64,000 bases of DNA from IMG/VR virus record IMGVR_UViG_3300021375_002698. One strand, 5' to 3'. Shown here in pieces: positions 24,353-56,312 of the stretch. Below the pieces are notes generated by a model that saw nothing but the letters and a program-made list of their open reading frames with translations, had not been told where the DNA came from and did no database searches. Each line of letters starts with the position of its first letter. The first letter of the stretch is position 1. Origin of the DNA: a virus. A program made the translations under genes and the position numbers.

Positions 24353-24363
24353 TCGGTATCCCC

Positions 24364-25215: not shown

Positions 25216-25263
25216 TTAATATTATATAAAAAAAAGTGAATTTATACAATTAATTTAAAAAAA

Positions 25264-25620: not shown

Positions 25621-25634
25621 TTCTTTGTCCTTTT

Positions 25635-26297
25635 TTATCCAATTTTTATTATTGTTGTACACATTGATTTTTGTGTTGTTGCATGATGCAAGTCTAAAGA
25701 GCCTGAACCTTGACCAGCGCTATCTGTTGCTACAACTACAAGGCGCAGTATATCATTTTGAACTGCGTCCACTATGCCTGTAGCTATTCCTCCATAATTT
25801 TGACCTAAACTGTCAACATAACACTTTGAACCAAAATATCCAGCGTTACATTGCCATCTATAAGTGGCTGAAGCTGCTGTACCACTTTCTCTGTCTGCAT
25901 GAACTGAATACATGCATAGATATCTACCAGCTTCAGGTATATCAATTGACTCAAACCACTTGCTATTAGATAGTACAGAATTTGTTGATGTTGCATTGTT
26001 CCACGTAAAATTACTAGCTGTAAAATTATATGATTCATGACGTCGGGCTAAAAGGTAGTCACCTACTTCGTATAAGTATACACCTGTACCCCACGCAAGA
26101 TTTGTAGAACCAAATAAGCCAAATTTCAAACTTAAATCACTTGTAAGACTACTTGGAATGTTACTGTTTTGCCAAGACGAGCCATTAAAGTTTATTACGT
26201 CATTATTTGAGGGTGTTCCGCTTTGAGTAACATCAGACAAATTTAACGTAATATTGCTTGATGACTTGTTATTAATATTTGTAAAAGAGTGACTCAT
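25635..26297 (-). CDS. Short fibre-like protein
   Basis: LSDV...FNGSSWQN fibre repeat and IPEAGRY beta-sandwich motif; paralog of 26312..26953. Confidence 0.6.
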   Translation of the reverse strand: MSHSFTNINNKSSSNITLNLSDVTQSGTPSNNDVINFNGSSWQNSNIPSSLTSDLSLKFGLFGSTNLAWGTGVYLYEVGDYLLARRHESYNFTASNFTWNNATSTNSVLSNSKWFESIDIPEAGRYLCMYSVHADRESGTAASATYRWQCNAGYFGSKCYVDSLGQNYGGIATGIVDAVQNDILRLVVVATDSAGQGSGSLDLHHATTQKSMCTTIIKIG

Positions 26298-26311
26298 GAT
26301 TATGACCTTCT

Positions 26312-26953
26312 TTAGCTTATTTTCATTATAAGCAAGTAAGTATGTTCTGATATTTTGTTACCTTGATTTGCAACTGTGTCTACGTTTGAAACAGCAGCAA
26401 GTCTAATACCAATTGTTGTTGAGGATGTCAAATTTAACCATGATTGTATTGTAGTCGCTTTACCGTCTGAGTATGAGGTTGAATTATCACCAATTAGTCC
26501 TGCTGCGCTTTTTGTATCATTATTACTTGTGTTTGATAGATTGAATAAAAGATAACCGCTAGCTGAAAACTCTACGTAAGTTTGACATTGTACAAAATAC
26601 TTTCCTGCAGGTAATGTTATATCACTATACCAATTAGAAGATAAGTGTTGCGTTAAAGAAGCTCCTGATATGTTATTTATAGGACCTGTATCATATATTC
26701 TCAAATATGAGTCTTGATTCATGTTCGAAGCGCCGCTATTTGAGTATGCACTAGTTTCACCTTGTCCAATTAACATGTAGTTAGTTGAAGTTGAAGGTGC
26801 AGCTGAATTTACCCAAGCACTACCGTTATATTTTAAGACCTGTGTATCTGAAGCTGATGATATTGTAACATCTGATAAATTTTCTACGGAAAGCGTAATT
26901 TCTCCGCTACTATTAGGACTTTGACCTGCTACTGTTATTTTATTATGACTCAT
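26312..26953 (-). CDS. Short fibre-like protein
   Basis: LSDV...YNGSAWVN repeat and ITLPAGKY; MSH start shared with the neighbour. Confidence 0.6.
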   Translation of the reverse strand: MSHNKITVAGQSPNSSGEITLSVENLSDVTISSASDTQVLKYNGSAWVNSAAPSTSTNYMLIGQGETSAYSNSGASNMNQDSYLRIYDTGPINNISGASLTQHLSSNWYSDITLPAGKYFVQCQTYVEFSASGYLLFNLSNTSNNDTKSAAGLIGDNSTSYSDGKATTIQSWLNLTSSTTIGIRLAAVSNVDTVANQGNKISEHTYLLIMKIS

Positions 26954-27026
26954 GATACGATATTCTTTCTATTTCTATTATCCTATATGTATATATTAGT
27001 CACAAAGAGAATATTAACAGCTTTTA

Positions 27027-33000: not shown

Positions 33001-34235
33001 GCAGTAACAGCATCTGGAGCCTTAATAGAAACTGTATTTGAACCATTAGAATCTAATTCACTTAAAACTAAAGATTTAGCATTGTCTAAAACTACGTTGT
33101 TTGTAAATGTTGAAACCCCTGCATTTGAAATTGTAAGTCTATTATTACCACCTCCACCAGTTTCAAAAACTAGAGCACCAGCAGCATCTGTACATGTTAG
33201 ATTATTGTTTCCATTTCTTGAGAAAGTAATCTTTGCACCACCCTGAATTCCGATATTACCATCTGCACCTTGGAATCTAGCAATTTCAGAATCATCGCCT
33301 GTATCGACTACATGTAAAACTTTAGAAGGAGTAGCAGTTCCAATACCAACTCTATTGTTTGTAGAATCTACTTTTAAAACTGAAGCATCTACAGTTAAAT
33401 CACCTGCAAATTCACCAGCACCGAATGCTACGTTACCAGCTGTTCCACTAAACACCTCAGATGAGTTTGTTGCGTCTGGAATAAATGTAAACTTAGAAGT
33501 TGAATCATCATAACCAAAGAAGCCAACTTTAGCTGCAGATCCATTATGCCATCTAAATTCTACACCACGATCTTTATTATCATCACTGCCAGGAGCAGTA
33601 TCACCACCCAAAGTTATGACTGGATCATCTACAGTCTGCGTAGTAGAATTGATAGTTGTTGTTGTTCCGTTAACTGTTAAGTTACCAGTAACTGTTAAGT
33701 TGTCACCGATTGTAACTTCAGAAGTTCCATGTCCAATGTTAATAGCAATTCCACTCGTTTCAGTTGCTATTTTTAAAGCACCAGTTTGATTAGTGATATA
33801 TGAATTTGTACCATCATGATATAAAGTCATATCTAATCCAGCGCCAAACTGGAATTTATCGCTATCTGGAACTATTAAATCACCAGATGAGTTAACTGTT
33901 AACGCTTTGCTTGCTTCTGACGTGCCTAACGTTGTGATATCTAAATAGTTTATCTCAGCTGTAGTTACTGTAGCACCATCTAGTTTATTTAGTTCTGCAG
34001 CATTCGAAGTAACACCTAATGATATCAAAGCATCACTTGGTTGTTCGTGAACAAAGCTTGTCCCGTTGTAAACTAGAAAGTGATTGTTAGCTATCGCAGG
34101 TGACGTTCCAGTTAAGTCTACGTTGCGTAAGTCACCAATGTCTGCTAAAGCTAAAATGCTTTCTGCTAAAACAACCTCGTTACTAACAACTTGAACGTTT
34201 TCGTTTTGTGCATCATCAATTATAAAATTTATCAT
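27027..34235 (-). CDS. Very long modular fibre protein (tail or head fibre), 2402 aa
   Basis: G/A/S/T/D-rich; NNRVGIGT, DAATKSYVD, GDRVLLKDQ..QNGIY and TLPDG-G--QVL-T-GSG-L-W modules; internal duplications. Confidence 0.8.
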   Translation of the reverse strand: MINFIIDDAQNENVQVVSNEVVLAESILALADIGDLRNVDLTGTSPAIANNHFLVYNGTSFVHEQPSDALISLGVTSNAAELNKLDGATVTTAEINYLDITTLGTSEASKALTVNSSGDLIVPDSDKFQFGAGLDMTLYHDGTNSYITNQTGALKIATETSGIAINIGHGTSEVTIGDNLTVTGNLTVNGTTTTINSTTQTVDDPVITLGGDTAPGSDDNKDRGVEFRWHNGSAAKVGFFGYDDSTSKFTFIPDATNSSEVFSGTAGNVAFGAGEFAGDLTVDASVLKVDSTNNRVGIGTATPSKVLHVVDTGDDSEIARFQGADGNIGIQGGAKITFSRNGNNNLTCTDAAGALVFETGGGGNNRLTISNAGVSTFTNNVVLDNAKSLVLSELDSNGSNTVSIKAPDAVTADVTLTLPDGVGTNGQALTTNGSGVLNWTTISPGSSTLASLSDTNISSPSAGHILIHDGSNSFDNVTLSGDATISSAGALTIASDAVEGSMLNDNVISGQTEMTGDVADTDELLISDAGTIKRADFSVVRDAIYNDISGDATVAAGGALTIAANSVQDSMINDDVATGLAGDGLAASSGVLSVGVDDSSIETNSDALRVKAAGITNAMLSGSIADSKLNTISTAGKVALSSLEIDGGTDIGAALVDADLIVVDDGAGGTNRKSTLTRVKKYIYSAMSGDATASDEGALTISANAVEGSMLNDNVISGQTEMTGDVVDTDELLISDAGTIKRADFSVVRDAIFNDISGDATVAAGGALTIGANSVEKAMVNSNVVTGQTELSSKDDNGNDAVLVWDNSASALKKMTLNTLLSGTGSSGNLSNVVEDTTPQLGGSLDVNGQDIVSISNGNITLTPNGSGVVRIDGTSGIDMQSGSISVKNSGSVSNVKLYCEVGNAHYTQLQSAAHGSYSGNVTLTLPTSTGNLVGTGDSGTVTNTMLAGSITAAKMNNAIFADLETLGAPASDGQFIVATGSGAFAYESANTARTSLGLGTGSSPTFTSLTLSGQAAALAMNSQKITGLATPTADGDAATKSYVDSVAEGLDVKDSVHVASTANIASLSDGCDAGATIDGVTLVAGDRVLLKDQSTASQNGIYVVAADGVSPSRGADMEAASSAAGVFVFVEEGTANADAGFVCTSNAGADTVGTHSLAFTQFSGAGQITAGSALTKSGNTLNVAVDDSSIEVSSDALRVKASGITSAMLAGSIANSKLNQLTTANKVALSSLDLDGGTDIGADLVDADLIVVDDGAGGTNRKSALSRIKKYVYSSISGDATASDAGALTIASGAVETAMVNANVITGQTAETSIHNDDLVLIYDDSASALRKMTKANFVSGLGSGSTAADDISAGDAAVTITTTSGDTNIKSAAGDVLIEAENNAKKVTIKGDHESSTAIHLDGNANAASIVDIDAGVLDIDATAGITMDGTTLSIDGTDDSNLTVTGSAKDLDISVAGGGTQELRLTSAGTGASALHLNASAGGINIDSADMIDIDAADEITIDTTSADGHIAITSAHTAGEAILISANADAGSILNIDAGIMDVDVQGTYTLDATGISLDSDAASNFTTSSGALTLSGAGGVNINGGLGSTGVTISAAGAISADGRIITDDTTNATSTTDGAIQTDGGLSVALDVVIGDDLLLKSDNSVLHFGADSEVTLTHDPDVGLLLKNTETGDDKPVRLTLISGESELSNGEVVGSIDFKATDTTGFTGVISSIESVTKTTFSSTAKNNTKLSFKTSTGGNAAAEVMSIDHVGYLTVSGGLGVSGDTSTFSSANSTDPLVIIKNTTNDANGARLRFVKDKGAAGADNDVAGLIEFYADDDNQDQIKFAEIKAQVADASNGAEGGKLTLSVAEHDGTLTQGLLLSDGSADGEIDVTIGAGTSSTSTVAGKLSLGGITYDFPTSDGSANQVLKTDGSGNLDWVAQSGGGSTAADDLTAGDAAVTIATSLGNITIDAQAGDSDIIFKGTDGSSDITMLTLDGSDAGTAIFNHDIKMPTSGAVLSMGPSDDVKITHVENSGLLITLDSDGDGSYDPKLELKAEHTDGYGPNLILNHSESDGATDTIYKISGKARNDAGNSKIFTSIDGRKITHGNGSEDGRLMLYVMAAGTLTTAVNIDGSNGGTTSFSNDIKLTSDSSVISLGAGNDATLTHDGTTGLTIAATPISIDSTGELHLNSTTGDIKFQDGGTDQLALDLDGTAGEVIMKLMVDSDDFVFQQYDGTEVFRVEDSGEFNTTGNLVIKNQKEIRLSEGSGNGTNYLGFKAPAAVTSNVTFTLPDGDGSANQVLKTNGSGTLSWTAMSGGGGGFTYSAITSTTTAQAEYHYSVSTSGGAVTLNLPARSGVTAGKEIRVKLTAAGNDLTIDGNGSETIDGSATLVLNVANQSVTLVAGSSTNWEVV

Positions 34236-34263
34236 TTTTTTTGATTTTCCTTTTTAAAATAAA

Positions 34264-36255
34264 TTAGTTAACTTTTTTCCATATATATACGTTTTTCGTA
34301 CTGCCATCAGGCCCTATAAAATTACTATCTTTATAAAGCTCAAAAGTTATTATTCCACCAGAAGTCGATGCCATAAGATCTACACCCGTATAATAATTTT
34401 TATTATCATAGTTGCTTAGAGAGTCTATAGAACCTGATGCGCCGCTTTGAATAAATACAGCATTAGGCTCAGAATTTGAGTATGTCGTGTTACCTGATAA
34501 GCCTGCTTTTGCATCATTAGGATTGGTATATATATATAGTCTATTGAGCTTACTATTCGTGCTTACGTTTGTAAGATTATTTACTTTTATTTGAACTTTA
34601 GATCCTAAAAGAGAAGAGTCTACAGGAGGCATATATAATTTATAGTTTTGTGATGCAGAATTTGCTGTATTAAGCCAAGCAGTAAAATTCATACTCTGTG
34701 ATGTCCAGTTAATATTAGGTGTTGTATTAACATCTGACAATATTAAAGTTGCTGAAGGTGTTGTATTATTTATTGTATAAGTATTAGAACTTGCTGAAGT
34801 TGTATTTATATTCAACATTTGAGTTGCAATATAGTTCTTGACACTTCTTTGTGTAGGTACGTCAACTCCACTATTTGATGTAAAGTCATCTTCATCTAAA
34901 ATAGTTACCCAATCAAGACTTCCATTTGCATCTGTAGTCTTCATTATACGATTAGCAGCATTACCGTCTGTATCAGGTAGAGTTAAATCATAAGAAGCTG
35001 CTAATGCAGGAGATTTCAAGTTAATGGTATCAGTACCACCACTTTCTTGAATTTTAACGCTTTGTTTAGCCAATATATTATCAGCTTCTGCTGTAGAAAA
35101 CGTTGCTGTTCCTGTTACAGTTGGAGAATCTAAAAGTTGTGAAGGTTGTGATATCGCATAATAATAGTTTGATGCACCTTTTTGTTTTATTCCGACAATA
35201 TCTAACCAACCTGCTTTAAAGTCTGCTGCTGATATTTCTAGGCATTCAAATGCTAATCCTGATCCTGAGTTATTACCATTTTGTGAAGCAGTAAAGAATG
35301 TTGTAGTTGCATCATTTGTAGCTCCTAGATTATTCCAACCAGATCCTGATATGATTTTATATGTTTTGCCTTGTACTATATTTGAAAACGTAACTACTCT
35401 ACTAGTAGATGCGTCCCAAAAACTATTGCCAATTACTTCGATATCATCTCCACTTAACTCAGGAGCAATAAAAACTTTACCTGCAATTGATCTTGCTAAT
35501 TTATATCTTATTCCTTTTGTAGGATCCCAATCAAACAAAGAAGTATCATTTAAAGAAGTCGAGCTAGTTAAGTTATTCCAGTCTGGTAAAATTACGTAAA
35601 AATCGTCACTTCCTTGATATTGACTTATTCCGCCTGTTAACATTACGCTTTCATTGTTTTTTGAAAAAGTGAATGGGCTTGTTTTTGATATTGCTTTATA
35701 ATACCAAGTAGTGTATATAGGAGATAAACTTACTTCGCCGAAGTCGTCTGGTAAAGTTATGACTCGATCTGCTGTTGGATCTTCAACTTGAAGTGTAGTT
35801 TCAAAGTTATTAGAAGTTAGACCTTCAAATACAAATTTATAATCTTCAGCAACGTTTAGTTGTTTTGTACTGCTATCTGCTGATAGACCTGTAATTCCTG
35901 AAGATGTAGGTGCTGCCCAAGTGCCATCTGCTCTTAAAAAGTTTGTTGTATTATTTGCATTACTAGCTGTACTTATATCTAATACGTTTAATTCTGCTAA
36001 AGATGCTGTAATTCCTAACGCAGATATTACATCACCACCTACTTTGTTTTCCCATTTAGATGAAGTGTTATTATACACTAACATATGATTTGAAGCTACT
36101 GCATTTAAAGTCACATCACTTAAATGATCAATATCACCTAAGGATAATATGTCTTCTATAGGAACATAATCATTGTTTTTAGATAATGCTTGAGTTTCAT
36201 AAAATAAGCTCTTTGTTTCATTTTTTATTTTTAAATATTTTTGTAATATTGACAT
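34264..36255 (-). CDS. Fibre-like virion protein
   Basis: LSDV, DPTADRVITLPD and VPTQRSVKNY fibre modules. Confidence 0.7.
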   Translation of the reverse strand: MSILQKYLKIKNETKSLFYETQALSKNNDYVPIEDILSLGDIDHLSDVTLNAVASNHMLVYNNTSSKWENKVGGDVISALGITASLAELNVLDISTASNANNTTNFLRADGTWAAPTSSGITGLSADSSTKQLNVAEDYKFVFEGLTSNNFETTLQVEDPTADRVITLPDDFGEVSLSPIYTTWYYKAISKTSPFTFSKNNESVMLTGGISQYQGSDDFYVILPDWNNLTSSTSLNDTSLFDWDPTKGIRYKLARSIAGKVFIAPELSGDDIEVIGNSFWDASTSRVVTFSNIVQGKTYKIISGSGWNNLGATNDATTTFFTASQNGNNSGSGLAFECLEISAADFKAGWLDIVGIKQKGASNYYYAISQPSQLLDSPTVTGTATFSTAEADNILAKQSVKIQESGGTDTINLKSPALAASYDLTLPDTDGNAANRIMKTTDANGSLDWVTILDEDDFTSNSGVDVPTQRSVKNYIATQMLNINTTSASSNTYTINNTTPSATLILSDVNTTPNINWTSQSMNFTAWLNTANSASQNYKLYMPPVDSSLLGSKVQIKVNNLTNVSTNSKLNRLYIYTNPNDAKAGLSGNTTYSNSEPNAVFIQSGASGSIDSLSNYDNKNYYTGVDLMASTSGGIITFELYKDSNFIGPDGSTKNVYIWKKVN

Positions 36256-46383: not shown

Positions 46384-46878
46384 TTAATTTTTAACATTAA
46401 ACATTCTTGAAACATTTCTAGAATAAAGCTGTGCTTCTTCTTTTGAATTGAAAGTTTTAATAGTAGTTTCACCTTTAGTTTTAATAGTCGTATATTCATC
46501 ACCAGAGTTTACATCTATTCCGCTATCAAAAATAGCACCATTAACAGACGCAATATTTTCAGGTGAGATATTATATCCACTATTATCTGAAAATACTTTG
46601 CTTTTTTGATTCCTTCCTACGGCTTCTTTAACAGCTTCTTTAAACTCTTTAGATATTTTTTCTATTAAAAAAATATTATTTTTTGTATCACAATATCTTA
46701 TTGTAGATTTGTTAAAAAACTCTTTTAATAATAAAAGACACACATTACTTTTCAATAATAAATTATAGTTTCCTTGCAAATTTAATTCAAATATTGATTG
46801 TAAATAGTCAGATTCATATTTTTGTAATTTTAGTCCAACACTATTACAATTTTCTAGTAAAGTTGATAATTTTTTCAT
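46384..46878 (-). CDS. Hypothetical protein (start MKKLSTLLE)
   Basis: Start moved from 47034 to ATG 46878, which removes the overlap with the divergent peptidase gene. Confidence 0.6.
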   Translation of the reverse strand: MKKLSTLLENCNSVGLKLQKYESDYLQSIFELNLQGNYNLLLKSNVCLLLLKEFFNKSTIRYCDTKNNIFLIEKISKEFKEAVKEAVGRNQKSKVFSDNSGYNISPENIASVNGAIFDSGIDVNSGDEYTTIKTKGETTIKTFNSKEEAQLYSRNVSRMFNVKN

Positions 46879-46900
46879 TTTAAGCCTACTCAGGAGATAT

Positions 46901-47698
46901 ATGCTTAAATATACTATAACAGTTCTTTTTTTATTAATTTCATGCAGCGTTAATGAAGATGCTGATTTTAAAAAAAGTAGTTTTAAAAAAATTGACAAAA
47001 TAATGTCAGGTAGCTCGTGCAATGACAAATGCATTTGGTCAACTTACGCTGTGAACATGAATATACAAGAAGGGAAATATGAATGCAGTAGCGGAAAATG
47101 TGTTTGCGTAAAAGAAAATAATGCATACATGCTGTGTGAACCTGCGGGTTTCTTGAATAACTTAGAAAATAATGATAAGAGTAAAAATGACATATTATCA
47201 ATACCGTATTACAATCAATATGAAAACGAATTTTATAAGTCTTCAACATGTCAAAATACTTCAATAGCTATGGCTCTAAGCTATTTTGAATATATAATAA
47301 GCCCAGACTATATCTTTAGCGAGTGGGGTAAAGATATAGCTCAGTCACCAATGGGATTAAACAGTGTATACTCTCACTACTCAAAAAAATCAAAAATAAA
47401 AACAAATACTTCAGCTTCACCAAGTGACTTGCTAAAATCACTTTCAAATGGTAATATTGCAATAGTTCACGGATACTTCACTTCATCTGGTCATGTAATA
47501 GTAGTTAGAGGGTTTTATAACAATAGATATCATGTTAACGATCCCGCCGGGAAATGGCTAGGGTGTTTTATGTGCGGATACTCATCAAATAATAATGGTA
47601 TTACTTCATATAGTAAAGAAGCTTTTGAAAGTGCTGTTTTTACATCAGACGGTAGTACATATTTACCTGGTTGGATTCATATAATATCTAAGCTTTAA
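46901..47698 (+). CDS. C39-like cysteine peptidase with lipoprotein signal (candidate cell-wall hydrolase)
   Basis: Lipobox LISC; PYYNQ, CQNTSIAM (catalytic Cys), GHVIVVRG (His), NDP (Asp); AGGAG RBS. Confidence 0.8.
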   Translation: MLKYTITVLFLLISCSVNEDADFKKSSFKKIDKIMSGSSCNDKCIWSTYAVNMNIQEGKYECSSGKCVCVKENNAYMLCEPAGFLNNLENNDKSKNDILSIPYYNQYENEFYKSSTCQNTSIAMALSYFEYIISPDYIFSEWGKDIAQSPMGLNSVYSHYSKKSKIKTNTSASPSDLLKSLSNGNIAIVHGYFTSSGHVIVVRGFYNNRYHVNDPAGKWLGCFMCGYSSNNNGITSYSKEAFESAVFTSDGSTYLPGWIHIISKL

Positions 47699-48096: not shown

Positions 48097-48939
48097 ATGG
48101 AAATGAAAAAAATTAACTTATGTATTCTTTTGTTAGATCTAGTAGGTTCTACCAAGTTTGTTCAAAAATATGGAAATGAACATGCTGCAAAAATTTTTCA
48201 AGCTCATGATAAGTTAACTAGATCTTTAATATACAAGTTTAACGGTCGTGAAATTGATAGATCTGACGGTTTTCTAATGAGTTTTAATAGTACAATAGAT
48301 GCAGTTAACTTTTCTTTAATATATCATAAAACAATACCTCCAAGAACAACACTTCAGGCAAGGATCGGTATCCATTGGGGCGAAATTATAGAAGTAGCGC
48401 AAGAAGATAAGTTTATAGACGCAGGTGCTAAACGAGTAGAGCTAGAAGGATTATCTAAGAATACAGCTGCTAGAATAATGTCGTTAGCTGCAGGAGGTCA
48501 AACATGCTTGTCTACACAAGCTTTTAATAAAGTAAAAAACAGATCAAATATGCATACGCCTAAAAATGCTAGATACGCATGCGCAGGAGTATATAAGTTA
48601 AAAGGAATAAGAGACCCAATAGATGTTTATGTAGTAGGTGTTTCTATTGAAAGTCTACAACCTCCAAAAAATTCTGACAAAGTTAAGAAGATTGCTGGAC
48701 CTAAAAAAATAAAGTCGCGAGCAAGAGATAGAAAGCTAAAAGAATGGTTCTGGTATTTATATCCAAAATTAGGTATTATATCTTTAATATTTTTAATTAA
48801 AAATTTTTGGCCTATGCTTGGAAGGGAGTCAACTAGAATTGCTTTAAGGATTGACTTTTACTTTTTCTGGATAGACTATATAAATATAGTCATAAACTTC
48901 TTACATTCAATATACGAGAATACATTAGGTAATATATAA
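48097..48939 (+). CDS. Class III nucleotide (adenylate/guanylate-type) cyclase with C-terminal membrane anchor
   Basis: DLVGST (metal Asp 1), IDRSDGF (Asp 2), RIGIHWG, NTAAR, GQTCLS, YKLKG. Confidence 0.9.
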   Translation: MEMKKINLCILLLDLVGSTKFVQKYGNEHAAKIFQAHDKLTRSLIYKFNGREIDRSDGFLMSFNSTIDAVNFSLIYHKTIPPRTTLQARIGIHWGEIIEVAQEDKFIDAGAKRVELEGLSKNTAARIMSLAAGGQTCLSTQAFNKVKNRSNMHTPKNARYACAGVYKLKGIRDPIDVYVVGVSIESLQPPKNSDKVKKIAGPKKIKSRARDRKLKEWFWYLYPKLGIISLIFLIKNFWPMLGRESTRIALRIDFYFFWIDYINIVINFLHSIYENTLGNI

Positions 48940-49499: not shown

Positions 49500-50405
49500 C
49501 TATAGCTTATTTAATAATTCATGAGAATCTTTAATAGCAAAAACTAACTCCAGATACTCAGAGCTATTTGCAATATACTTCATAGTATTCATATTTGTTT
49601 TCTTTATTGACTTAGAAAATATTGAATTATACCACTCTTCACCTTTATGCCTATAAGCCAGTTTTTGTGAAGTATCATCTAATACATTGTCTGGGGTTAA
49701 TTGAGGAATTCTAAACTCTTCTGACTCTGCTTTGTTTATATCAAGTTGAATAATTTCAATATCATTTCTATTGGCATATATTTGCCATTTCTTTTGTGCA
49801 TTTAAAGAAACTGACTTTCTATCTGAACAAACACTTTTATCTCTTATCATTGATAAAAATTCTAACATTACTTCGAATATAACTGCATTAAAACCCTCTG
49901 TAGACTTATGAACAAGCATTATTCTATATGCACCTTCGCCATATCCTGTAGGCCAGTCTTTATCTGTTGCTTCAAAGTCAATAGTACTTGATATTGCTCT
50001 GCTTTCTGATAACTCGCTGAAGTCAAATTTTATAAAACACTCATCTTCATCTTCATACAGCTTAATTCTTCCCATTATACTATTATCTTTTTTTAATTCT
50101 CTTTCTTCATGAACATATCTTTCAAGCTTTCTAATTATACTCATAATTTTATAATTAACACCATGTATGTCGTCAACTAAATTAAACTTTTCTATCTTTT
50201 TAAAATCTTCTGGATTGTTTATATCAAATTCTTTATAAAAATTAGAATTACTTACACTTACTTCATCATAGTTTTTATAGTCTTCATCTTCATACCCAAA
50301 GTTATATTTGTCTTCATCTATATCTGATAAATTTATGTTTTTAAAAGATTCACTAATAAAACTATTCCACTCTTTTAATATACCCTTGAAATCTTTGTTA
50401 ATCAT
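49500..50405 (-). CDS. Hypothetical protein, possible GNAT-like fold, with class B leader
   Basis: IFEVMLE...SDRKSVSLNAQKKW recalls a phage GNAT-like family; leader ILKEWNSFISE. Confidence 0.55.
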   Translation of the reverse strand: MINKDFKGILKEWNSFISESFKNINLSDIDEDKYNFGYEDEDYKNYDEVSVSNSNFYKEFDINNPEDFKKIEKFNLVDDIHGVNYKIMSIIRKLERYVHEERELKKDNSIMGRIKLYEDEDECFIKFDFSELSESRAISSTIDFEATDKDWPTGYGEGAYRIMLVHKSTEGFNAVIFEVMLEFLSMIRDKSVCSDRKSVSLNAQKKWQIYANRNDIEIIQLDINKAESEEFRIPQLTPDNVLDDTSQKLAYRHKGEEWYNSIFSKSIKKTNMNTMKYIANSSEYLELVFAIKDSHELLNKL

Positions 50406-50433
50406 TTATATAAACCTTTTTTTATTTTATATA

Positions 50434-50727
50434 TTATGTAATCCACCAACTATCAAAACTACCATGTTTAATTTTTTCATAAATATCATCAGGTATACTA
50501 CCAACACAGTTGCAATTAAACCACTCACCCTCTTCAGACCATCTACTAAGACTTTCATGAATTATTTTCTCTCTCCACCCCATTCCTTTGAAAGATGATA
50601 TTAATTTAAGCTTGTTAGCATTACCCGTTTGAAGCTGCTTCAATCTTCTATTAGGATCTTTAGATCTACCAACCTTTATCATTCCTGTTTTATCTGACTG
50701 TATAAAATATAAATAATCTTTTTTCAT
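50434..50727 (-). CDS. GIY-YIG-like nuclease (T5orf172/MUG113 family)
   Basis: LYFIQ, IKVGRS-x-x-P-x-x-RL-x-x-LQTGN, E-x-x-x-H, GEWF. Confidence 0.9.
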   Translation of the reverse strand: MKKDYLYFIQSDKTGMIKVGRSKDPNRRLKQLQTGNANKLKLISSFKGMGWREKIIHESLSRWSEEGEWFNCNCVGSIPDDIYEKIKHGSFDSWWIT

Positions 50728-50809
50728 ATTATCTCTCTTAAAAATGATATAATTATTATATCTTGATATTAACTATTTTATAAATTTCTTAACTTATACT
50801 TTTATAAAT

Positions 50810-50838
50810 TTGTAAAAAAAAAGATTTATTTATACAAT
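50810..50838 (+). promoter_or_regulatory. Sigma70-like promoter of pyrF
   Basis: TTGTAA-N17-TACAAT, 18 nt before the ATG. Confidence 0.5.
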
Positions 50839-50856
50839 AAAAAAAAAGGAATTTCT

Positions 50857-51495
50857 ATGAATAAAATATGCTTAGGGCTAGACTTAGAACCGGGTACTAG
50901 ATTATTTAATTACTATAAAGTTATTGATGAAACTAAAGACTTAGTTCACAGTTATAAAATAAATCCATCTTACTTTTTAGGAAATCAAAGAGTCTTAGAC
51001 AAATTAATTAAACAATTAAATTATATTGGCGCAAAGTGGATATACGATGGAAAAATCGGTGATGTACTTCATAATAACGATCATTACGCTTATCACATAT
51101 ATGACGTGCTTAGAGCAAGTGGTGTAACGCTTAATCCATATGCAGGATATGAATCTTTAGTTCCATTTACAAGATATGAACATAAAATGAACTTTGTTTT
51201 ATGCAAAACTTCAAATATAGGATCAGAATTCATGCAAAGTGAAGATGTATTTGAAAAGATATACGATATGTCAAAAAAATTAAAAACTGGCATCTTAGTT
51301 GCAGGAAATAAAGAAAATATATTAGAAAAAACAATAGAAAAATGTCCGAACGCTGAAATTTTGTGTACAGGAATAGAAATACAAGGCGGCTCAATTAATA
51401 AAAATATAAAAAATGAAAATGTAATATATAACATATCTAGATCAATAGTTAATTCTTCAAACCCAAGATTAGAGTTAGAAAAATATATTAAATAA
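50857..51495 (+). CDS. pyrF: Orotidine-5'-phosphate decarboxylase
   Basis: CLGLD, YKIN, DGKIGD (D-x-K-x-x-D), TLNPYAG, CKTSN, QGG, NISRSI. Confidence 0.88.
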   Translation: MNKICLGLDLEPGTRLFNYYKVIDETKDLVHSYKINPSYFLGNQRVLDKLIKQLNYIGAKWIYDGKIGDVLHNNDHYAYHIYDVLRASGVTLNPYAGYESLVPFTRYEHKMNFVLCKTSNIGSEFMQSEDVFEKIYDMSKKLKTGILVAGNKENILEKTIEKCPNAEILCTGIEIQGGSINKNIKNENVIYNISRSIVNSSNPRLELEKYIK

Positions 51496-51685
51496 TATTA
51501 TCTCCACCTTTTAGTAACATTTATACATAAACTTCATGCACAACAAAAATTACTGGAACATATACATTAGAAAAAAGACGATGTTTATGGAGATAACAAC
51601 TTTAAGAAAAACTGATATTAAAAATATCTTATATTAAAATTCATTTTAATTATCATTATCTTCGTTCGAATGTGAATTTGCTTTA

Positions 51686-52366
51686 TTATAAACTCGTATT
51701 TCCCGCTGCTTTTTGTTGATCAATTAATTCTTGGTTTATAAAAGTTGTTTTATCATAATCTTTGCTTTTTTTACCTTTAACATTATCTTTGTTTACTTTT
51801 TCGCTTTTTTTAACAATATATCTTTCAAACTTTTTTACAATTTGATTAAAATCATAAATATCAATTTTAGGATCATCACCTCTCATATATGACTTAGACT
51901 TTTCCTGAACTTTTTTGCCTATTAATTTAACAATTCTAATAACACATGCTTTAGGGTCATCTTCTACATCACTATTTAAAGCTGAATATTTCTTAACTAA
52001 ATCTACTAATTTTTCTACATGATAGTGTGTATCATCATAGCTTCTACTTTGAACAACGTTATCTTTCATGTATTGATTTATTTTTTCATCTATTTCTTTT
52101 TTTACGAAACTATCGCTAACGCCTTTTTGTTTGAGCTGACTATTCATTTCAGAAGTAGCTGCTTCACGCGAATTTGAATTAGGACTCGCTTGTGTTTGTT
52201 TAAAAGGATTTAAAGCAATAGCTGCCAAAGCTGCTAATGCCAAGTTTTGTTTTAAACCCTCTTCAAGCACTTCTTGGCTATCAACATTGTCTTCGTCATT
52301 TAATAGTCTTCGCCAGCTTTCTACTAAAACCTTTGTTTCTTTTTTATTATTAATATTATTAATCAT
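51686..52366 (-). CDS. Hypothetical protein with class B leader and internal hydrophobic segment
   Basis: ETKVLVESWRRLLNDE...LEEG followed by LALAALAAIAL. Confidence 0.75.
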   Translation of the reverse strand: MINNINNKKETKVLVESWRRLLNDEDNVDSQEVLEEGLKQNLALAALAAIALNPFKQTQASPNSNSREAATSEMNSQLKQKGVSDSFVKKEIDEKINQYMKDNVVQSRSYDDTHYHVEKLVDLVKKYSALNSDVEDDPKACVIRIVKLIGKKVQEKSKSYMRGDDPKIDIYDFNQIVKKFERYIVKKSEKVNKDNVKGKKSKDYDKTTFINQELIDQQKAAGNTSL

Positions 52367-52470
52367 TCTTAATTCCTATCTTTATTTACCATAAGCTTTA
52401 CTATAATTATTCTTTGCAATCTAAAAATTACTTTTTATAAATTAATATAAATCTTTATATTATTTCGTTT

Positions 52471-52632
52471 ATGAATAAAAAATATATAATAACAACAACT
52501 CAATTAAAAATGATTAACATATTAATAAAAACAGCTGAAGAGTCTATTAATAGAAATACTTTTTCTAAAGATGAAATTGAAAAAATTAAAAAAACTGTAA
52601 AAATATTAAACTCTTACCCAACTAATGTTTAA
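52471..52632 (+). CDS. Small hypothetical protein, 53 aa (not in the ORF track)
   Basis: MNKKYIITTTQLKMINILIK...; fills the intergenic gap; no clear RBS. Confidence 0.4.
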   Translation: MNKKYIITTTQLKMINILIKTAEESINRNTFSKDEIEKIKKTVKILNSYPTNV

Positions 52633-53302
52633 ATTTCTTGTATAGTTTTTTAGCTAAAGCTTTTCCGCTATTAATATCAGATGGAAAATGAACACCTCTA
52701 TCTAACCTTGACTGCGAAATCTTTTTAGCAAGATTCAAGAACTCTTTTCTTAACAACGGAAAACGATCAGATAGTCTGTAAGCGATATAATATCCCTGCG
52801 CAGCATGACCTGAAGGATATGCACTTGATTCTGCTGATTCTAAATCATCGCTATTAAATATAATATTGTGTTTTTTAGCTAAAAATTTAGGTCTTAAACA
52901 ACTAAAATGTTCTTTATGATAATAAATGATTTCAGAAATCTCGCTTTTTATTTTTTTTACCAAATCGATATGAGAATCAAAACCACTGTCAATAATTAAT
53001 TCATCAAATAATTCATTAATTTCAACGTCTAGTCTGTAAAGCATACTCTCATCATTAAACTTATTATTATACTGTTTTTTTATCAAATTTAACTCTTTAA
53101 CTCTTTCTAATTCAGATGGCGGATCATCTATCAATATTTCTTCATCAATATCTGAATAATGATTCGTTTCAAGCATACTCTCAAACTTTTTCGGCTCATC
53201 TGACATGTTATACACTAAGCCTTTAAGAATAAACTTATTACTTAACTCAAATAATATAACTTCACGTATTAATTTTCTCAATAATATTTCTGATATTTTC
53301 AT
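52622..53302 (-). CDS. PAP2-family phosphatase with class A leader
   Basis: K-x6-RP, YPSGH and SR-x5-HFPSD motifs. Confidence 0.88.
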   Translation of the reverse strand: MKISEILLRKLIREVILFELSNKFILKGLVYNMSDEPKKFESMLETNHYSDIDEEILIDDPPSELERVKELNLIKKQYNNKFNDESMLYRLDVEINELFDELIIDSGFDSHIDLVKKIKSEISEIIYYHKEHFSCLRPKFLAKKHNIIFNSDDLESAESSAYPSGHAAQGYYIAYRLSDRFPLLRKEFLNLAKKISQSRLDRGVHFPSDINSGKALAKKLYKKFKH

Positions 53303-53369
53303 AATAAAAGCCTTTTAATGTTTTTTAGTTATACTTATAATATATACATAAAAAAAAGAAAGAAAATTT

Positions 53370-53744
53370 ATGCTAATAACAGAAAAAAAGCTTAGAAAAA
53401 TTATAAAAAACGTTATATCTGAAAATTATGAAGAAAACGAATACTACTCTAGCGGAAGCAGCTTAGAAGACTCGCTTGAACAAGGTAATCCAGATCCTGA
53501 AAGATACTCTTTCGATAATCACGGATATGAAAAAGATATTAAGCATCCAGAATATACAAAAGTAAATGATCCTGTAACTGGAGAAGTATTCTATGTAGAT
53601 GAAGTCACAGATGAAATCATGTCAGAAGATGAATTTAACAAAAGAATAGGCAACTTAGACTTTGACTACCCACCAACTTATGATGAAGATGAAATAAACA
53701 CTTCATACGACATGAGTGATATGCCAGCAGGCGGTTACAATTAA
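53370..53744 (+). CDS. Acidic hypothetical protein with class A leader
   Basis: MLITEKKLRKIIKNVISE followed by a D/E/Y-rich body. Confidence 0.75.
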   Translation: MLITEKKLRKIIKNVISENYEENEYYSSGSSLEDSLEQGNPDPERYSFDNHGYEKDIKHPEYTKVNDPVTGEVFYVDEVTDEIMSEDEFNKRIGNLDFDYPPTYDEDEINTSYDMSDMPAGGYN

Positions 53745-53781
53745 TACGGCGACATACTTGATTATGATCTAGACTAATGCT

Positions 53782-54042
53782 TTACATATCTATATCACCG
53801 CTTATATCACCTAATCCAAAATAATCTAACAAGTCTTCACAAGTTAAATTCATCTTAGCTTGCTCTATATCCAAACTTCCACAGCTATCAATATAATTCA
53901 ACGCTCCCCTATGCAATACCATGCAATCTTCAACTAAAATCGTCAACTCCCTACACTCACTAGTATCTTCTTCTTTTTCCACTCTATCATCATTGCAAGA
54001 AATAAATAAAAACAACAATACAATATATAAAAACCTAAACAT
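53782..54042 (-). CDS. Small lipoprotein
   Basis: Signal peptide with FISC lipobox; four further Cys. Confidence 0.7.
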   Translation of the reverse strand: MFRFLYIVLLFLFISCNDDRVEKEEDTSECRELTILVEDCMVLHRGALNYIDSCGSLDIEQAKMNLTCEDLLDYFGLGDISGDIDM

Positions 54043-54062
54043 TTCAAAAAACCCTTTATCTT

Positions 54063-54104
54063 TAAATATTAATAAGTTGTTTCTAAATATTAATAAGTTG
54101 TTTC
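54063..54104. repeat. 2 x 21-bp tandem repeat
   Basis: TAAATATTAATAAGTTGTTTC twice, upstream of the lipoprotein gene. Confidence 0.9.
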
Positions 54105-54135
54105 TTTTTCACTTCACAAAATAATAAATACCTAA

Positions 54136-54474
54136 TTAACAACCACAAGATTCTGAACATACTTTTTCACAATGAATACACTTACATATCTCGTCTAAAC
54201 ATCTACAACAACCCATAATATCTCCTCTACAGCAGTGTGCACATAATTCAATACAATGAATAGCCATCTTATGATTAGCTTTGCAAATCTTATCACACAT
54301 CTCTATCAATTCTTGTTTGGACATATCACAGCAAAACTTTGCTTTACTCATATTAGTACTAGAATCCACTTCTCTATGATCAAAGTCTCTTTGTAAATAA
54401 TCTTCAGGCATAAATTCAGACTCATTTAATACACTTTTTATAATACTTCTTAACTTACTTTCAGTTATTTTCAT
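54136..54474 (-). CDS. Cys-rich putative metal-binding protein (Csp/metallothionein-like) with class A leader
   Basis: 17 Cys in the C-terminal ~65 aa, in CxxC/CxxxC spacing; AAGGAG RBS. Confidence 0.7.
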   Translation of the reverse strand: MKITESKLRSIIKSVLNESEFMPEDYLQRDFDHREVDSSTNMSKAKFCCDMSKQELIEMCDKICKANHKMAIHCIELCAHCCRGDIMGCCRCLDEICKCIHCEKVCSESCGC

Positions 54475-54522
54475 ATTAATCTCCTTAATTTTTTAATATA
54501 TCTATATATTATCAGCAAAAAA

Positions 54523-54993
54523 TTACATTCTTAATTGCTTTATTTTACCATATGCTCTACTATAATTATTCTTTACCATCTCACAATTACTCTTTATACT
54601 CTCACAAAACGCTAATTTAAACTCTTCATCAACTCGATCAACTAAACGAGAAACCTCAGACTTCCAATACTTCAAACAAGCGTGCGTTGAAGGTAAACTC
54701 TTAAAATTATCCTCACAACCTGATGATAAAGCATCACATATTTTATTCACTTCTTCTCTTGACAAGAACCCAAATCTAATTGAATCAACTAATGTACCGA
54801 AAAATCCTGTACTCACACTCATTAACTTCATTACTTCAACCTTGGAACTAGCACCACTTATCTGATCCTTTGGCACCACAGAAGTCATAGTCTGTTTATC
54901 AATAGGATCAGGACTAGGTCTCATACTATATACGTCTTCACTTATCAAATCTCTCCAACTCTCAACTAATAATCTTGTCTCTTCTTTGTTCAT
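54523..54993 (-). CDS. Hypothetical protein with class B leader
   Basis: MNKEETRLLVESWRDLISE; AGGAG RBS. Confidence 0.75.
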   Translation of the reverse strand: MNKEETRLLVESWRDLISEDVYSMRPSPDPIDKQTMTSVVPKDQISGASSKVEVMKLMSVSTGFFGTLVDSIRFGFLSREEVNKICDALSSGCEDNFKSLPSTHACLKYWKSEVSRLVDRVDEEFKLAFCESIKSNCEMVKNNYSRAYGKIKQLRM

Positions 54994-55070
54994 TACATTA
55001 ACTCCTAATCAATCTTTATATGCATATAAATATGTTTAATCAATTCAATATGAAAAGTTTAACACAATTA

Positions 55071-55094
55071 AACGTCGTGACACAGGCGACACCC
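55071..55094. repeat. 24-bp dispersed direct repeat, copy 1
   Basis: AACGTCGTGACACAGGCGACACCC; 21/24 identical to 55805-55828. Confidence 0.8.
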
Positions 55095-55125
55095 ATCTCG
55101 ATCAAAATTATCAAATATTTCCGAC

Positions 55126-55731
55126 TTAAAATCGACCTCTGTCCATCATGTCTTTTTGACGCGCTTTTTCTTCAGATCTTTCTATACTTAAACGATCTAA
55201 ATGATCTAAATTAGGTTTACCATACTTATTTCCTCTTTTAGTAATTGCTTTGATATCATCGCTATAATGAATCTCTCTAGGATCTGTTCCATGGTAACCC
55301 GGTGCTGATTTATCTACAAAACTTTCGCCATCTAATCTTAACTTATAATGCGTATTACTTCCTGCTTCTTTAAAAACAATAATATTAATCTCACTTTTTA
55401 AGTCGCTATCTTCAATCACAAATAAAGGAATCAAGGCTTTTGACTCATTCTTGTTAGCCCACTTGATATCTTCAACACTATCTGGACTTATTACTATTTC
55501 ATTTGTATTGATTTGTTTACCCTTTAATAATTCTATAAGCTTGTCAGCTTCTTGTTCTCCCGCAATTATACCATGATCAGGAATAAAATCATACTTAAGA
55601 CTTCTTGCTTCAGACTCGCTTATCTCTTTACCTCTTTTACTTAAGTCTATATTACCTCTACTATTTTTACTAGCTGATTCTTTCAATATATTTCTTATAA
55701 TTCTTCTTAATCTACTCTCAGTTATTCTCAT
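55126..55731 (-). CDS. Hypothetical protein with class A leader
   Basis: MRITESRLRRIIRNILKE; AGGAG RBS. Confidence 0.75.
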   Translation of the reverse strand: MRITESRLRRIIRNILKESASKNSRGNIDLSKRGKEISESEARSLKYDFIPDHGIIAGEQEADKLIELLKGKQINTNEIVISPDSVEDIKWANKNESKALIPLFVIEDSDLKSEINIIVFKEAGSNTHYKLRLDGESFVDKSAPGYHGTDPREIHYSDDIKAITKRGNKYGKPNLDHLDRLSIERSEEKARQKDMMDRGRF

Positions 55732-55802
55732 ATTATCTCCTAATTAATATTTAATATAAATATATATATTCAATCAAATCACAAATATAAATTAAACAAG
55801 CA

Positions 55803-56312
55803 TCAACGTCGTGACACCCGAGACACCCTACTCCACACAGTCGCTTCCCAACCATCACTATCATCAACATACTTTCGCCCAGTATCTACAAATCCAGCAT
55901 TGCTAAACGCTCTCTTAGAAGAAATATTGTCCACACCAATCAACAAATCAGCAGCTTCTCTACCCACAAAAAACTTCGATATCGCAATACTACCTATTCC
56001 TCTAATACTCTCCCTTACTTCACTATCAATATAAATCGCACCCACTCTCCATCCACTTCTTTCTTCTCGAGGTGTCATAAACCCCACTAACTCGCCTTCA
56101 TAATATATTCCCCCTCTTAAACGTCTACTATCATCAGGATATACAAAACCACTTATCTCACCATCTTCATCTCCCTTCATTAACAAATCGCTATCAATAT
56201 CATCAGGATATGCTACTTCAACATCTCCACTAGCAGCTATATCTATCTCTTCTCTTAATAACTTTCTCCATCCCTCAACTAATAGCTTCGTCTCTCTACA
56301 ATTCATGCTCAT
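55803..56312 (-). CDS. GNAT-family acetyltransferase with class B leader
   Basis: GELVGF, IYID...RGIGS (motif A), N-x-x-S-x-x-x-F-x-x-x-GF (motif B). Confidence 0.78.
   Translation of the reverse strand: MSMNCRETKLLVEGWRKLLREEIDIAASGDVEVAYPDDIDSDLLMKGDEDGEISGFVYPDDSRRLRGGIYYEGELVGFMTPREERSGWRVGAIYIDSEVRESIRGIGSIAISKFFVGREAADLLIGVDNISSKRAFSNAGFVDTGRKYVDDSDGWEATVWSRVSRVSRR
55805..55828. repeat. 24-bp dispersed direct repeat, copy 2
   Basis: AACGTCGTGACACCCGAGACACCC; encodes the last codons of the GNAT gene. Confidence 0.8.

What the first reader, a model, noticed from the sequence alone, without database searches (positions are those of the whole stretch)
49500..56312. Eight unrelated proteins share two short N-terminal leaders: candidate modular capsid-targeting / injected-cargo system
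Seen: Class A leaders are MKISEILLRKLIREVILFE (PAP2), MLITEKKLRKIIKNVISE (acidic protein), MKITESKLRSIIKSVLNE (17-Cys protein) and MRITESRLRRIIRNILKE (unknown). Class B leaders are ETKVLVESWRRLLNDE, ETRLLVESWRDLISE, ETKLLVEGWRKLLRE (GNAT) and, more weakly, DFKGILKEWNSFISE. Similarity stops abruptly after an [I/L]-x-E motif (LNDE in one case) about 18-25 residues in. The bodies are unrelated and the genes lie on both strands. Known: T4 internal proteins carry a short N-terminal capsid-targeting sequence that the prohead protease gp21 removes after [I/L]-x-E. Inference: these amphipathic leaders are portable address tags that load a phosphatase, acetyltransferases and a metal binder into the head for delivery at infection. 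Two leader classes could mean two docking sites. MKKLSTLLE (46878) may be a third, T4-like short form.
Basis: partly seen in the sequence, partly recalled or inferred. Interest (0 to 1): 0.85.

Follow-up and report, generated by a model that had tools for sequence, protein, structure and literature searches.

The report
Capsid-cargo leader peptides, T4-like jumbo phage
An uncultured T4-type jumbo phage puts two kinds of short N-terminal tag, each ending in the cutting motif of its own head protease, on nine unrelated proteins; these tags most likely load the proteins into the capsid, as T4 does with its internal proteins, but with different and far more widely used tags.

Summary
Four class A and four class B leaders sit at the stated gene starts. 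Similarity ends after 18-25 residues and the bodies are unrelated. A ninth member lies outside the window.

The window belongs to a 102.5-kb fragment (about 41% complete) of a phage with a T4 gp23-type capsid protein and a gp21-type (Peptidase_S77) prohead protease.

- **Class A spread:** the class A leader heads about 100 genes in IMG/VR viral contigs. Nearly all copies are at ORF starts, on at least 64 unrelated bodies. Only three genuine copies turned up in 596 Gb of cellular genomes, all on MAG contigs; two of those three MAGs carry gp23 capsid genes.
- **Cutting motif:** 72 of 81 class A leaders carry [ILVMF]-x-E ending at residues 17-32, most often at residue 18.
- **Link to the head:** the class A leader matches the N-terminus of a conserved small protein encoded just after the protease (hhalign 87%, E 3.7e-6). 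It also clusters around the protease in two other lineages.
- **Class B:** these leaders also head genes just downstream of the capsid gene in relatives. Their likeness to the capsid and protease N-termini is weak.
- **Tag swapping:** one GNAT body family occurs with class A, with class B, or with no leader.

The capsid-targeting reading is therefore well supported in silico. Packaging, cleavage and injection are untested. The proposed "third form" is indistinguishable from chance. Earlier notes of this scan describe similar leader systems on other DNA.

The parts
52622..53302 (-). Class A leader (residues 1-19, DNA 53246-53302, ends LFE) + disordered linker + PAP2 class A acid phosphatase-like body
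   Evidence: ORF. Pfam PAP2 2.6e-9. Catalytic motifs invariant in 15 homologues. AF2 model: helix from residue 5 (DSSP 5-30; pLDDT drops below 50 from residue 23), linker 23-50 at pLDDT <50, body pLDDT >90. Closest folds are PhoN/PhoC acid phosphatases.
53370..53744 (+). Class A leader (residues 1-18, DNA 53370-53423, ends ISE) + 106-aa acidic body (29 D+E, 6 K+R)
   Evidence: no Pfam or PHROG hit.
54136..54474 (-). Class A leader (residues 1-18, DNA 54421-54474, ends LNE) + 94-aa body with 17 Cys
   Evidence: (E 5.7e-12). The roughly 80-nt piece 'upstream region + leader' recurs at several places in relatives G006 and G014.
55126..55731 (-). Class A leader (residues 1-18, DNA 55678-55731, ends LKE) + 183-aa body of unknown family
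   Evidence: The upstream region + leader DNA recurs in G005, G006 and G014.
51686..52366 (-). Class B leader (residues 1-25, DNA 52292-52366; LVE-16, ends LLNDE) + 201-aa body of unknown family
   Evidence: (E 1.3e-11).
54523..54993 (-). Class B leader (residues 1-19, DNA 54937-54993; LVE-12, ends ISE-19) + 137-aa body of unknown family
55803..56312 (-). Class B leader (residues 1-22, DNA 56247-56312; LVE-15, ends LRE-22) + GNAT-type acetyltransferase body
   Evidence: 114 representative homologues, most matching from residue 30-45 onward. 36 of 39 hit Pfam GNAT. AF2 pLDDT 92, helix 5-30 then an alpha/beta body. 79% nt identity to a gene in G014.
49500..50405 (-). Class B' leader (residues 1-19, DNA 50349-50405; LKE-12, ends ISE-19) + 282-aa acidic body of unknown family
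46384..46881 (-). Proposed 'third, T4-like short form' MKKLSTLLE: not supported as part of the system
   Evidence: A single case. [LI]xE within the first 10 residues occurs in 12 of 103 ORFs of this record. Only a weak PHROG hit to a family of unknown function (E 0.0011) and no leader match.

Best explanation
The two leaders are capsid-targeting propeptides of a T4-type head-assembly system.

Inferred mechanism:
1. Each leader is an N-terminal amphipathic helix.
2. The helix docks the attached protein onto the scaffolding core of the prohead as it assembles.
3. The phage's gp21-type serine protease (Peptidase_S77) then cuts after the Glu of the terminal [I/L]-x-E. In class B it may also cut after the internal LVE.
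4. The mature body is released inside the head and probably leaves with the DNA at infection.

Shown here:
- The tags exist and are portable.
- They are conserved at the peptide level and are phage-specific.
- Every complete genome checked that bears them also encodes an S77 protease.
- They end in the protease's motif.
- Class A is also the N-terminus of a conserved head-module protein.

Inferred only: binding to the core, cleavage, packaging and ejection.
For: 1. **T4-type head machinery.** Peptidase_S77 protease (E 1.5e-28 and 2.9e-27) and Gp23-family capsid protein (6.4e-80) lie in the same record. The gene order is terminase, portal, protease, small proteins, acidic scaffold, capsid.

2. 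**Class A is widespread and N-terminal.** A degenerate class A pattern finds 100 sites in 92 IMG/VR stretches. Nearly all are at ORF starts, in proteins of 69-337 aa. The 77 complete proteins fall into 64 unrelated body clusters and none hits Pfam.

3. **The cutting motif is conserved outside the search pattern.** Beyond the 13 residues used for the search, position 16 is I/L in 73 of 85 leaders and position 18 is E in 37 of 85. In 72 of 81 leaders, [ILVMF]xE ends at residues 17-32, with modes at 18 and at 21-22. The next residue is mostly S, A, N, V or G.

4. **The protease co-occurs.** S77 is present in 14 of 25 leader-bearing contigs and in 3 of 3 that are at least 90% complete.

5. **Class A sits on head-module proteins.**
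   - In G011 it heads the ORF before the protease and three ORFs right after it.
   - In the 484-kb phage LR756508, 6 of 14 hits lie within about 5 kb of the protease.
   - In this phage's own clade, the conserved 81-97-aa protein after the protease aligns to the leader (hhalign 87.4%, E 3.7e-6; iterated HMM E 0.004).

6. **Class B is linked to the head module by position.** Class B-type leaders head genes just downstream of the capsid gene in relatives. These include tiny acidic 68-85-aa proteins, and the ninth member of this phage.

7. **Class B motif is nearly confined to leaders and head proteins.** The motif hydrophobic-hydrophobic-x-E-(x)-W occurs 8 times in the six-frame translation. 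These are 5 leaders, the protease N-terminus, one head-module protein and one junk ORF. A related regex hits only the 3 class B leaders and the capsid propeptide.

8. **Core proteins are rich in the cutting motif.** [LI]xE is enriched 3-3.5 fold in the putative core proteins (scaffold 4.5, protease 4.3 per 100 aa) against a genome mean of 1.27.

9. **Tags are swapped between bodies.** The GNAT body family occurs leaderless (most of 114), with class B (P0020-22, P0031, P0104), with B' (P0017, P0018) and with class A (P0093, E 1.4e-5). PAP2 homologues have variant leaders or none.

10. **Selection acts on the peptide.** Invariant residues use all synonymous codons and leader GC ranges from 18 to 56%.

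11. **The leader is a detached tag in structure models.** In AF2 models it is an N-terminal helix. In the PAP2 protein a disordered linker separates it from a confident body.

12. **Precedent.** T4 internal proteins carry 10-19-residue propeptides that target them to the core and are cut at L/I-x-E (PMC9026906, PMC3012670).
Against: - There are no proteomic, expression or biochemical data. The phage is uncultured.
- Leader HMMs do not reach this genome's own head proteins without one round of iteration.
- The likeness of class B to the capsid and protease N-termini is weak (hhalign P 0.024 at 2% probability, and no match) and rests on patterns written after seeing the data.
- One class B leader ends LNDE, and 9 of 81 class A leaders lack the motif.
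- The eight genes lie away from the head module, among metabolic genes, and no shared late promoter could be shown.
- In G012, 32 matches at E <= 1 (30 at E <= 0.01) would make a very large cargo set, and about 6 copies are internal.
- T4 and the cyanophages tested have S77 proteases but not these leaders.
Confidence: 0.63

Rival explanations
1. The leaders do direct proteins to the prohead core and are cut, but the proteins are assembly-phase core components or sources of internal peptides. They are degraded or expelled at maturation and are not delivered to the host.
For: Class A is the N-terminus of conserved small head-module proteins. Several tagged proteins are small and very acidic, like T4 gp67/gp68 and the internal peptides. 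Core proteins here are rich in [LI]xE.
Against: Enzyme bodies with intact catalytic motifs (PAP2, GNAT) and confident folds are hard to explain as scaffold filler. The cargo set turns over quickly between close relatives, as with T-even internal proteins, which act after ejection (PMC3012670).
Confidence: 0.15
2. The leader is an N-terminal amphipathic, basic helix with another role, such as oligomerisation, nucleic-acid or membrane binding, or localisation in the infected cell. It spread among genes as a recombination cassette together with its upstream region.
For: The leader is Lys/Arg-rich and helical. About 80 nt of 'upstream + leader' DNA recurs at several loci in relatives. The genes are not in the head module.
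Against: This does not explain the conserved terminal [ILV]xE with a small residue after it. It does not explain the presence of S77 in every complete leader-bearing genome checked, nor the clustering of leaders on genes flanking the protease in three lineages. It also does not explain why the same body works without a leader in most homologues.
Confidence: 0.15

Closest known systems
Phage T4 internal proteins IPI, IPII, IPIII (and Alt) with the capsid targeting sequence (CTS), processed by prohead protease gp21
   Same: A short N-terminal propeptide is the only element shared by otherwise unrelated proteins. It ends in [L/I]-x-E. The phage encodes a gp21-family protease and a gp23-family capsid protein. 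The tagged gene set varies between relatives (PMC9026906, PMC3012670).
   Different: There is no sequence likeness to MKTYQEFIAE, and the class A profile finds nothing in T4. The leaders are longer (18-25 against 10 residues). There are two classes. Far more genes are tagged: nine in this 41% fragment, 32 matches in one relative, and at least 64 body families overall. Tagged bodies include recognisable enzymes (PAP2, GNAT). The same body occurs with either leader class.
Prohead core proteins and propeptides of T4 (gp67, gp68, gp22, the N-termini of gp21 and gp23)
   Same: Class A matches the N-terminus of a conserved small protein encoded just after the protease, where T4 has its core genes. 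Class B shares a short LL-x-E-x-W type motif with the N-termini of the protease and capsid protein here, and with T4 gp21 (LLIETW) and gp23 (LLNKW).
   Different: The class B likeness is only a short motif and is not significant in profile comparison. The small core proteins here have no detectable homology to gp67 or gp68.
Ejection / inner-body proteins of phiKZ-like giant phages (phiKZ, 201phi2-1, SPN3US), cut by a diverged gp21 homologue
   Same: Many head-internal proteins are processed after Glu by a gp21-related protease in large capsids (PMC9026906).
   Different: In that group the cutting motif is S/A-x-E, the propeptides are not a shared portable leader, and the capsid and protease are much more diverged from T4. 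Here the protease and capsid protein are clear S77 and Gp23 members.

Membership tests
T4-type capsid-targeting (CTS) / internal-protein system | Phage encodes a gp21-family (Peptidase_S77) prohead protease | tested here: met
   PF03420 E 1.5e-28 and 2.9e-27, above the cut-off, at G000:90737-91159 = L004:4630-5259. Also found in 3 of 3 complete leader-bearing relatives.
T4-type capsid-targeting (CTS) / internal-protein system | gp23-family major capsid protein with an N-terminal propeptide, assembled on a scaffolding core | tested here: met
   PF07068 6.4e-80. The N-terminal 59 residues are highly conserved and end VLRE before a variable stretch. The scaffold is identified only by position, acidity and [LI]xE richness.
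T4-type capsid-targeting (CTS) / internal-protein system | Short N-terminal propeptide ending in L/I-x-E, the protease's cutting motif | tested here: met
   8 of 9 leaders in this phage end this way, and one ends LNDE. In IMG/VR, 72 of 81 class A leaders carry the motif, most often ending at residue 18.
T4-type capsid-targeting (CTS) / internal-protein system | The leader is the only element shared by otherwise unrelated proteins | tested here: met
   Bodies are unrelated by BLASTP. There are 64 body clusters among 77 proteins. The GNAT body occurs with class A, class B or no leader.
T4-type capsid-targeting (CTS) / internal-protein system | Sequence homology of the leader to the T-even CTS (MKTYQEFIAE) | tested here: not met
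   The class A profile has no match in T4, P-RSM1, Syn33 or RM378. The T4 CTS read from NC_000866 is unlike either class.
T4-type capsid-targeting (CTS) / internal-protein system | Tagged proteins are packaged into the head, trimmed by the protease and ejected with the DNA | not testable with these tools
   Uncultured phage. No proteomics of any leader-bearing relative was found in the paper library.
PAP2 superfamily, class A non-specific acid phosphatase type (body of 52622-53302) | Pfam PAP2 match above the gathering score, the three signature motifs KX6RP, PSGH and SRX5HX3D, and the all-helical fold | tested here: met
   (Foldseek E 2e-6 to PDB 7f18/7f17; also 1d2t and 2a96).
GNAT acetyltransferases (body of 55803-56312) | Match to a GNAT profile and the alpha/beta GNAT fold | tested here: inconclusive
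   The protein itself has no Pfam hit at E <= 0.1. 36 of 39 of its homologues hit PF00583 (best 5e-10). The ESM Atlas neighbours are GNAT clusters at 0.92. The AF2 model is confident, but its fold was not searched.

The most novel reading that the evidence does not exclude
The two leader classes are copies of two different head-protein propeptides: class A from a small core protein, class B from the protease/capsid type. On this reading they send cargo to two different docking sites, or in two different copy numbers, in the prohead. Being exchangeable cassettes, they would define an address code across a large clade of uncultured aquatic T4-like jumbo phages. The whole injected proteome of such phages, up to about 30 proteins per genome, mostly of unknown function, could then be read directly from sequence.
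Probability: 0.25. Interest if true: 0.8.

Novelty: new variant of a known kind. Interest (0 to 1): 0.6.

Why it matters
Proteins that a phage injects with its DNA act first in an infection, and in T4 one of them (IPI) is a dedicated anti-restriction weapon. For uncultured phages there has been no way to tell which genes encode such proteins.

If these leaders are capsid-address tags, they mark the packaged set in a large group of aquatic T4-like jumbo phages. The set spans at least 64 body families, almost all without any known domain, plus a PhoN-like phosphatase and a GNAT acetyltransferase here. This gives a short, testable list of candidate early effectors and anti-defence proteins.

It would also show that the T4 capsid-targeting principle is ancient, uses several unrelated tag sequences, and may derive its tags from the head proteins' own propeptides. 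Such tags could also be used to load foreign proteins into non-coliphage capsids.

Tried and rejected
- **Complex prediction:** the scaffold alignment against the class A leader alignment returned 'no answer' (score 0.00, controls not run). It says nothing either way.
- **Shared late promoter:** the T4 motif TATAAATA is too common (47 copies) to be informative. ATATATAG lies 30-38 nt upstream of two leader genes, the scaffold gene and a cyclase-like gene, but also at about 9 unrelated places. This is not convincing.
- **Narrow leader HMMs:** models built only from this window's leaders, and alignment A1, did not reach this genome's own head proteins.
- **Class B profile comparisons:** hhalign of class B against the protease found no match, and against the capsid N-terminus only P 0.024.
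- **Cultured relatives:** tblastn of a conserved leader protein against 50,697 phage records found none.
- **Unknown body:** the ESM Atlas gave nothing for the 201-aa class A protein.
- **Databases:** PHROGs has no family for any of the eight leader proteins.
- **Radical-SAM tag rival:** rejected.
- **'Third short form':** rejected as untestable and at chance level.

Full report
**1. Observation**

- Class A: window 52622-53302(-), 53370-53744(+), 54136-54474(-), 55126-55731(-).
- Class B: window 51686-52366(-), 54523-54993(-), 55803-56312(-), and the weaker 49500-50405(-).

BLASTP among the proteins finds similarity only in residues 1 to about 16-23 within each class (44-63% identity). With the leaders cut off, nothing significant remains.

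HMMs built from the leaders hit only these genes in the six-frame translation of the whole record (E 1e-7 to 1e-12). The next best hits have E 0.3 or worse.

A ninth member lies outside the window. L004:14390-15529 begins KLILKEWKNFNIDLITE and pairs with the weak eighth leader. Leaders in relatives, such as KLLNEWKSFLNE and LIMESWRKFLKE, bridge this B' form to class B. In an alignment of 15 such leaders only the Trp is invariant.

**2. What the DNA is**

The window is bases 6568-70567 (minus strand) of a 102,517-bp IMG/VR virus record. The record has 29% GC and CheckV rates it about 41% complete.

Outside the window the record carries a T4-type head module:
- terminase and portal;
- a 277-aa protein;
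- a Peptidase_S77 (gp21) protease (E 2.9e-27);
- two small proteins;
- an acidic 558-aa scaffold-like protein;
- a Gp23-family capsid protein (6.4e-80).

The closest complete relative is a 239.5-kb IMG/VR genome with terminal repeats, G005, whose capsid protein is 88% identical. Cultured relatives are distant: Flavobacterium phage immuto at 43%, Microcystis phage Mel-JY01 at 35%, RM378 at 34%.

**3. Class A is a widespread, phage-specific N-terminal tag**

A degenerate DNA pattern for M-x-I-[ST]-E-x-x-L-R-x-I-I-[KR] finds 100 sites in 92 IMG/VR stretches. Nearly all open an ORF of 69-337 aa.

The 77 complete proteins fall into 64 body clusters, and none matches Pfam.

The same pattern in 596 Gb of bacterial and archaeal genomes gives 32 hits. 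Of these, 29 are noise and 3 are genuine leaders on MAG contigs. Two of those three MAGs contain gp23 capsid genes, so they hold phage DNA.

At the invariant residues all synonymous codons are used, and leader GC ranges from 18 to 56%. Selection therefore acts on the peptide, not the DNA.

Beyond the 13 residues used for the search:
- position 16 is I/L in 73 of 85 leaders, and position 18 is E in 37 of 85;
- in 72 of 81 leaders [ILVMF]xE ends at residues 17-32, with modes at 18 and at 21-22;
- the following residue is mostly small.

After that point no column is conserved.

**4. Link to the head machinery**

The S77 protease is present in 14 of 25 leader-bearing contigs and in all three that are at least 90% complete. 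The misses are fragments.

Three lineages place class A leaders next to the protease:
- In the complete 184-kb genome G011, the leader heads the ORF just before the protease and three ORFs just after it.
- In the 484-kb uncultured phage LR756508, 6 of 14 leader hits lie within about 5 kb of the protease.
- In this phage's own clade, two small proteins after the protease have highly conserved N-termini ending [IL]LAE|G and L-N-E|T. The second aligns with the class A leader at hhalign probability 87.4%, E 3.7e-6. It is also reached by a once-iterated leader HMM at E 0.004.

[LI]xE is 3-3.5 times enriched in the putative core proteins, and it is not enriched in terminase, portal or capsid protein. 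This matches how T4 core proteins are cut into pieces (PMC9026906).

T4, two cyanophages and RM378 lack the class A leader. T4's own CTS, read from NC_000866, is unrelated in sequence.

**5. Class B**

A class B pattern hits only four IMG/VR contigs, and all of them also carry class A leaders. The class B profile finds further members in 13 of 26 records.

In relatives, class B-type leaders head genes just downstream of the capsid gene. These include tiny, very acidic 68-85-aa proteins. The ninth member of this phage sits at the same place.

Two short-motif observations point to the head proteins' own N-termini:
- The motif hydrophobic-hydrophobic-x-E-(x)-W occurs eight times in all six frames of the record. 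These are five leaders, the protease N-terminus (conserved in the clade), one head-module protein and one junk ORF.
- A related pattern hits only the three class B leaders and the capsid propeptide.

T4 gp21 and gp23 begin with similar LLIETW and LLNKW motifs. The review of T4 head assembly notes LIE-9 of gp21 as a likely cleavage and targeting site.

These patterns were written after seeing the data. Profile comparison is weak: P 0.024 for the capsid N-terminus and nothing for the protease. I treat the class B origin as suggestive only.

**6. Modularity**

*GNAT body.* It has 114 representative homologues. Most match only from residue 30-45 onward and have no leader. Some carry class B (P0020-22, P0031, P0104) or B' (P0017, P0018), one or two carry class A (P0093 at E 1.4e-5; P0026 by eye), and some are internal domains of giant proteins.

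*PAP2 body.* Its homologues, several from Tara samples, have divergent leaders or none, while the catalytic residues stay invariant.

*Structure models.* The PAP2 protein has an N-terminal helix (confident only to about residue 22), a disordered linker (23-50) and a confident PhoN/PhoC-like body. The GNAT protein has a helix at 5-30 before a confident alpha/beta body.

*Turnover.* Against close relatives, flanking genes are conserved at 68-79% nucleotide identity. Of the leader genes only the GNAT gene is conserved. However, roughly 80-nt pieces made of upstream region plus leader recur at several loci. So the cargo set turns over, and the tag moves as a cassette.

**7. Rivals**
Four leader-bearing genomes, two of them complete, have no such gene.
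- A generic helix with another function does not explain the terminal motif, the presence of the protease in every complete leader-bearing genome checked, or the placement on head-module genes.
- The proteins may be core-phase components rather than injected cargo. This cannot be excluded.

**8. Comparison and novelty**

The system works like the T4 CTS / internal-protein system: 10-19-residue propeptides, L/I-x-E, gp21 (PMC9026906, PMC3012670). It meets every defining feature that sequence can test, except homology of the tag itself.

It differs in several ways:
- a different tag sequence and greater length;
- two classes of tag;
- much wider use (32 matches in G012);
- recognisable enzyme cargo;
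- apparent derivation of class A from a core protein's own N-terminus.

None of the six leader strings searched occurs in the paper library. Earlier notes of this scan report analogous leader systems with other tag sequences in other uncultured T4-like phages.

**9. Limits**

Nothing here shows packaging, cleavage or ejection. The complex prediction gave no answer, and no expression or habitat data could be obtained.

Noticed in passing
G012 loci L099:2700-16400(-), L103:100-600(-), L100:9900-16500(-): A complete 284-kb relative carries two tandem arrays, about 30 genes in all, that begin MKITKRQLRRIIKEEKAKLxxE and continue with unrelated bodies. About 6 leader copies lie inside longer ORFs, as if modules were strung into cleavable polyproteins.
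   Followed up: partly
window 54422-54513 and 55672-55835: About 80-160 nt made of the 5' upstream region plus the leader codons of two class A genes match several separate places in relatives G005, G006 and G014 at 70-87% identity, while the gene bodies do not. The tag seems to move together with its upstream region.
   Followed up: partly
L107:1337-1816 and 11645-12403; L104:5454-5675 (Flavobacterium phage vB_FspM_immuto_3-5A): A cultured relative has a shortened class A-like leader (MKKSQLRxIIK) on two hypothetical proteins (gp176, gp190), and MKKSQIVKAVQEVLEE on a 73-aa head-module protein. It is a usable experimental model.
   Followed up: partly
window 27027-34235 (-), within 24000-36000: A 2402-aa ORF with no Pfam family lies in an island of 36-38% GC in a genome that is otherwise 25-30% GC.
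   Followed up: no
window 48097-48939 (+): A class III adenylate/guanylate cyclase-like gene (PF00211, E 1.2e-4, just above the cut-off) with a C-terminal hydrophobic tail. It is followed by a 162-aa membrane/coiled-coil protein that is conserved in relatives.
   Followed up: no
window 46901-47698 (+): A lipoprotein-like protein (signal peptide with Cys) carrying a Peptidase_C39-like domain (1.6e-14). Its start overlaps the upstream part of the ORF that holds the proposed 'third form' leader.
   Followed up: no
window 50434-50727 (-) and 50857-51495 (+): A T5orf172/GIY-YIG-like gene and an orotidine 5'-phosphate decarboxylase gene sit inside the cluster of leader genes.
   Followed up: no
L004:12051-13445 (+), also L108:7924-9321 and L112:8122-9504: A 460-aa zinc-finger/NUMOD3 protein (homing-endonuclease-like) lies directly downstream of the capsid gene and is conserved in relatives.
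   Followed up: no
G000 ends (L002:1-100; L004:16420-16518): Both ends of the record lie inside perfect tandem repeats with units of 18 nt and 30 nt. The 18-nt unit reads Gly-Glu-Thr-Gly-Pro-Arg on the other strand, which is collagen-like. This probably explains why the assembly stopped there. The identical PAP2 protein is also on record on a 237,550-bp contig, so a fuller assembly exists.
   Followed up: no
window 54508 and 56341 regions; L004:8358: ATATATAG lies 30-38 nt upstream of the start codons of two leader genes, the scaffold gene and the cyclase-like gene. It also occurs at about 9 other places. It is a possible but unproven promoter element.
   Followed up: partly
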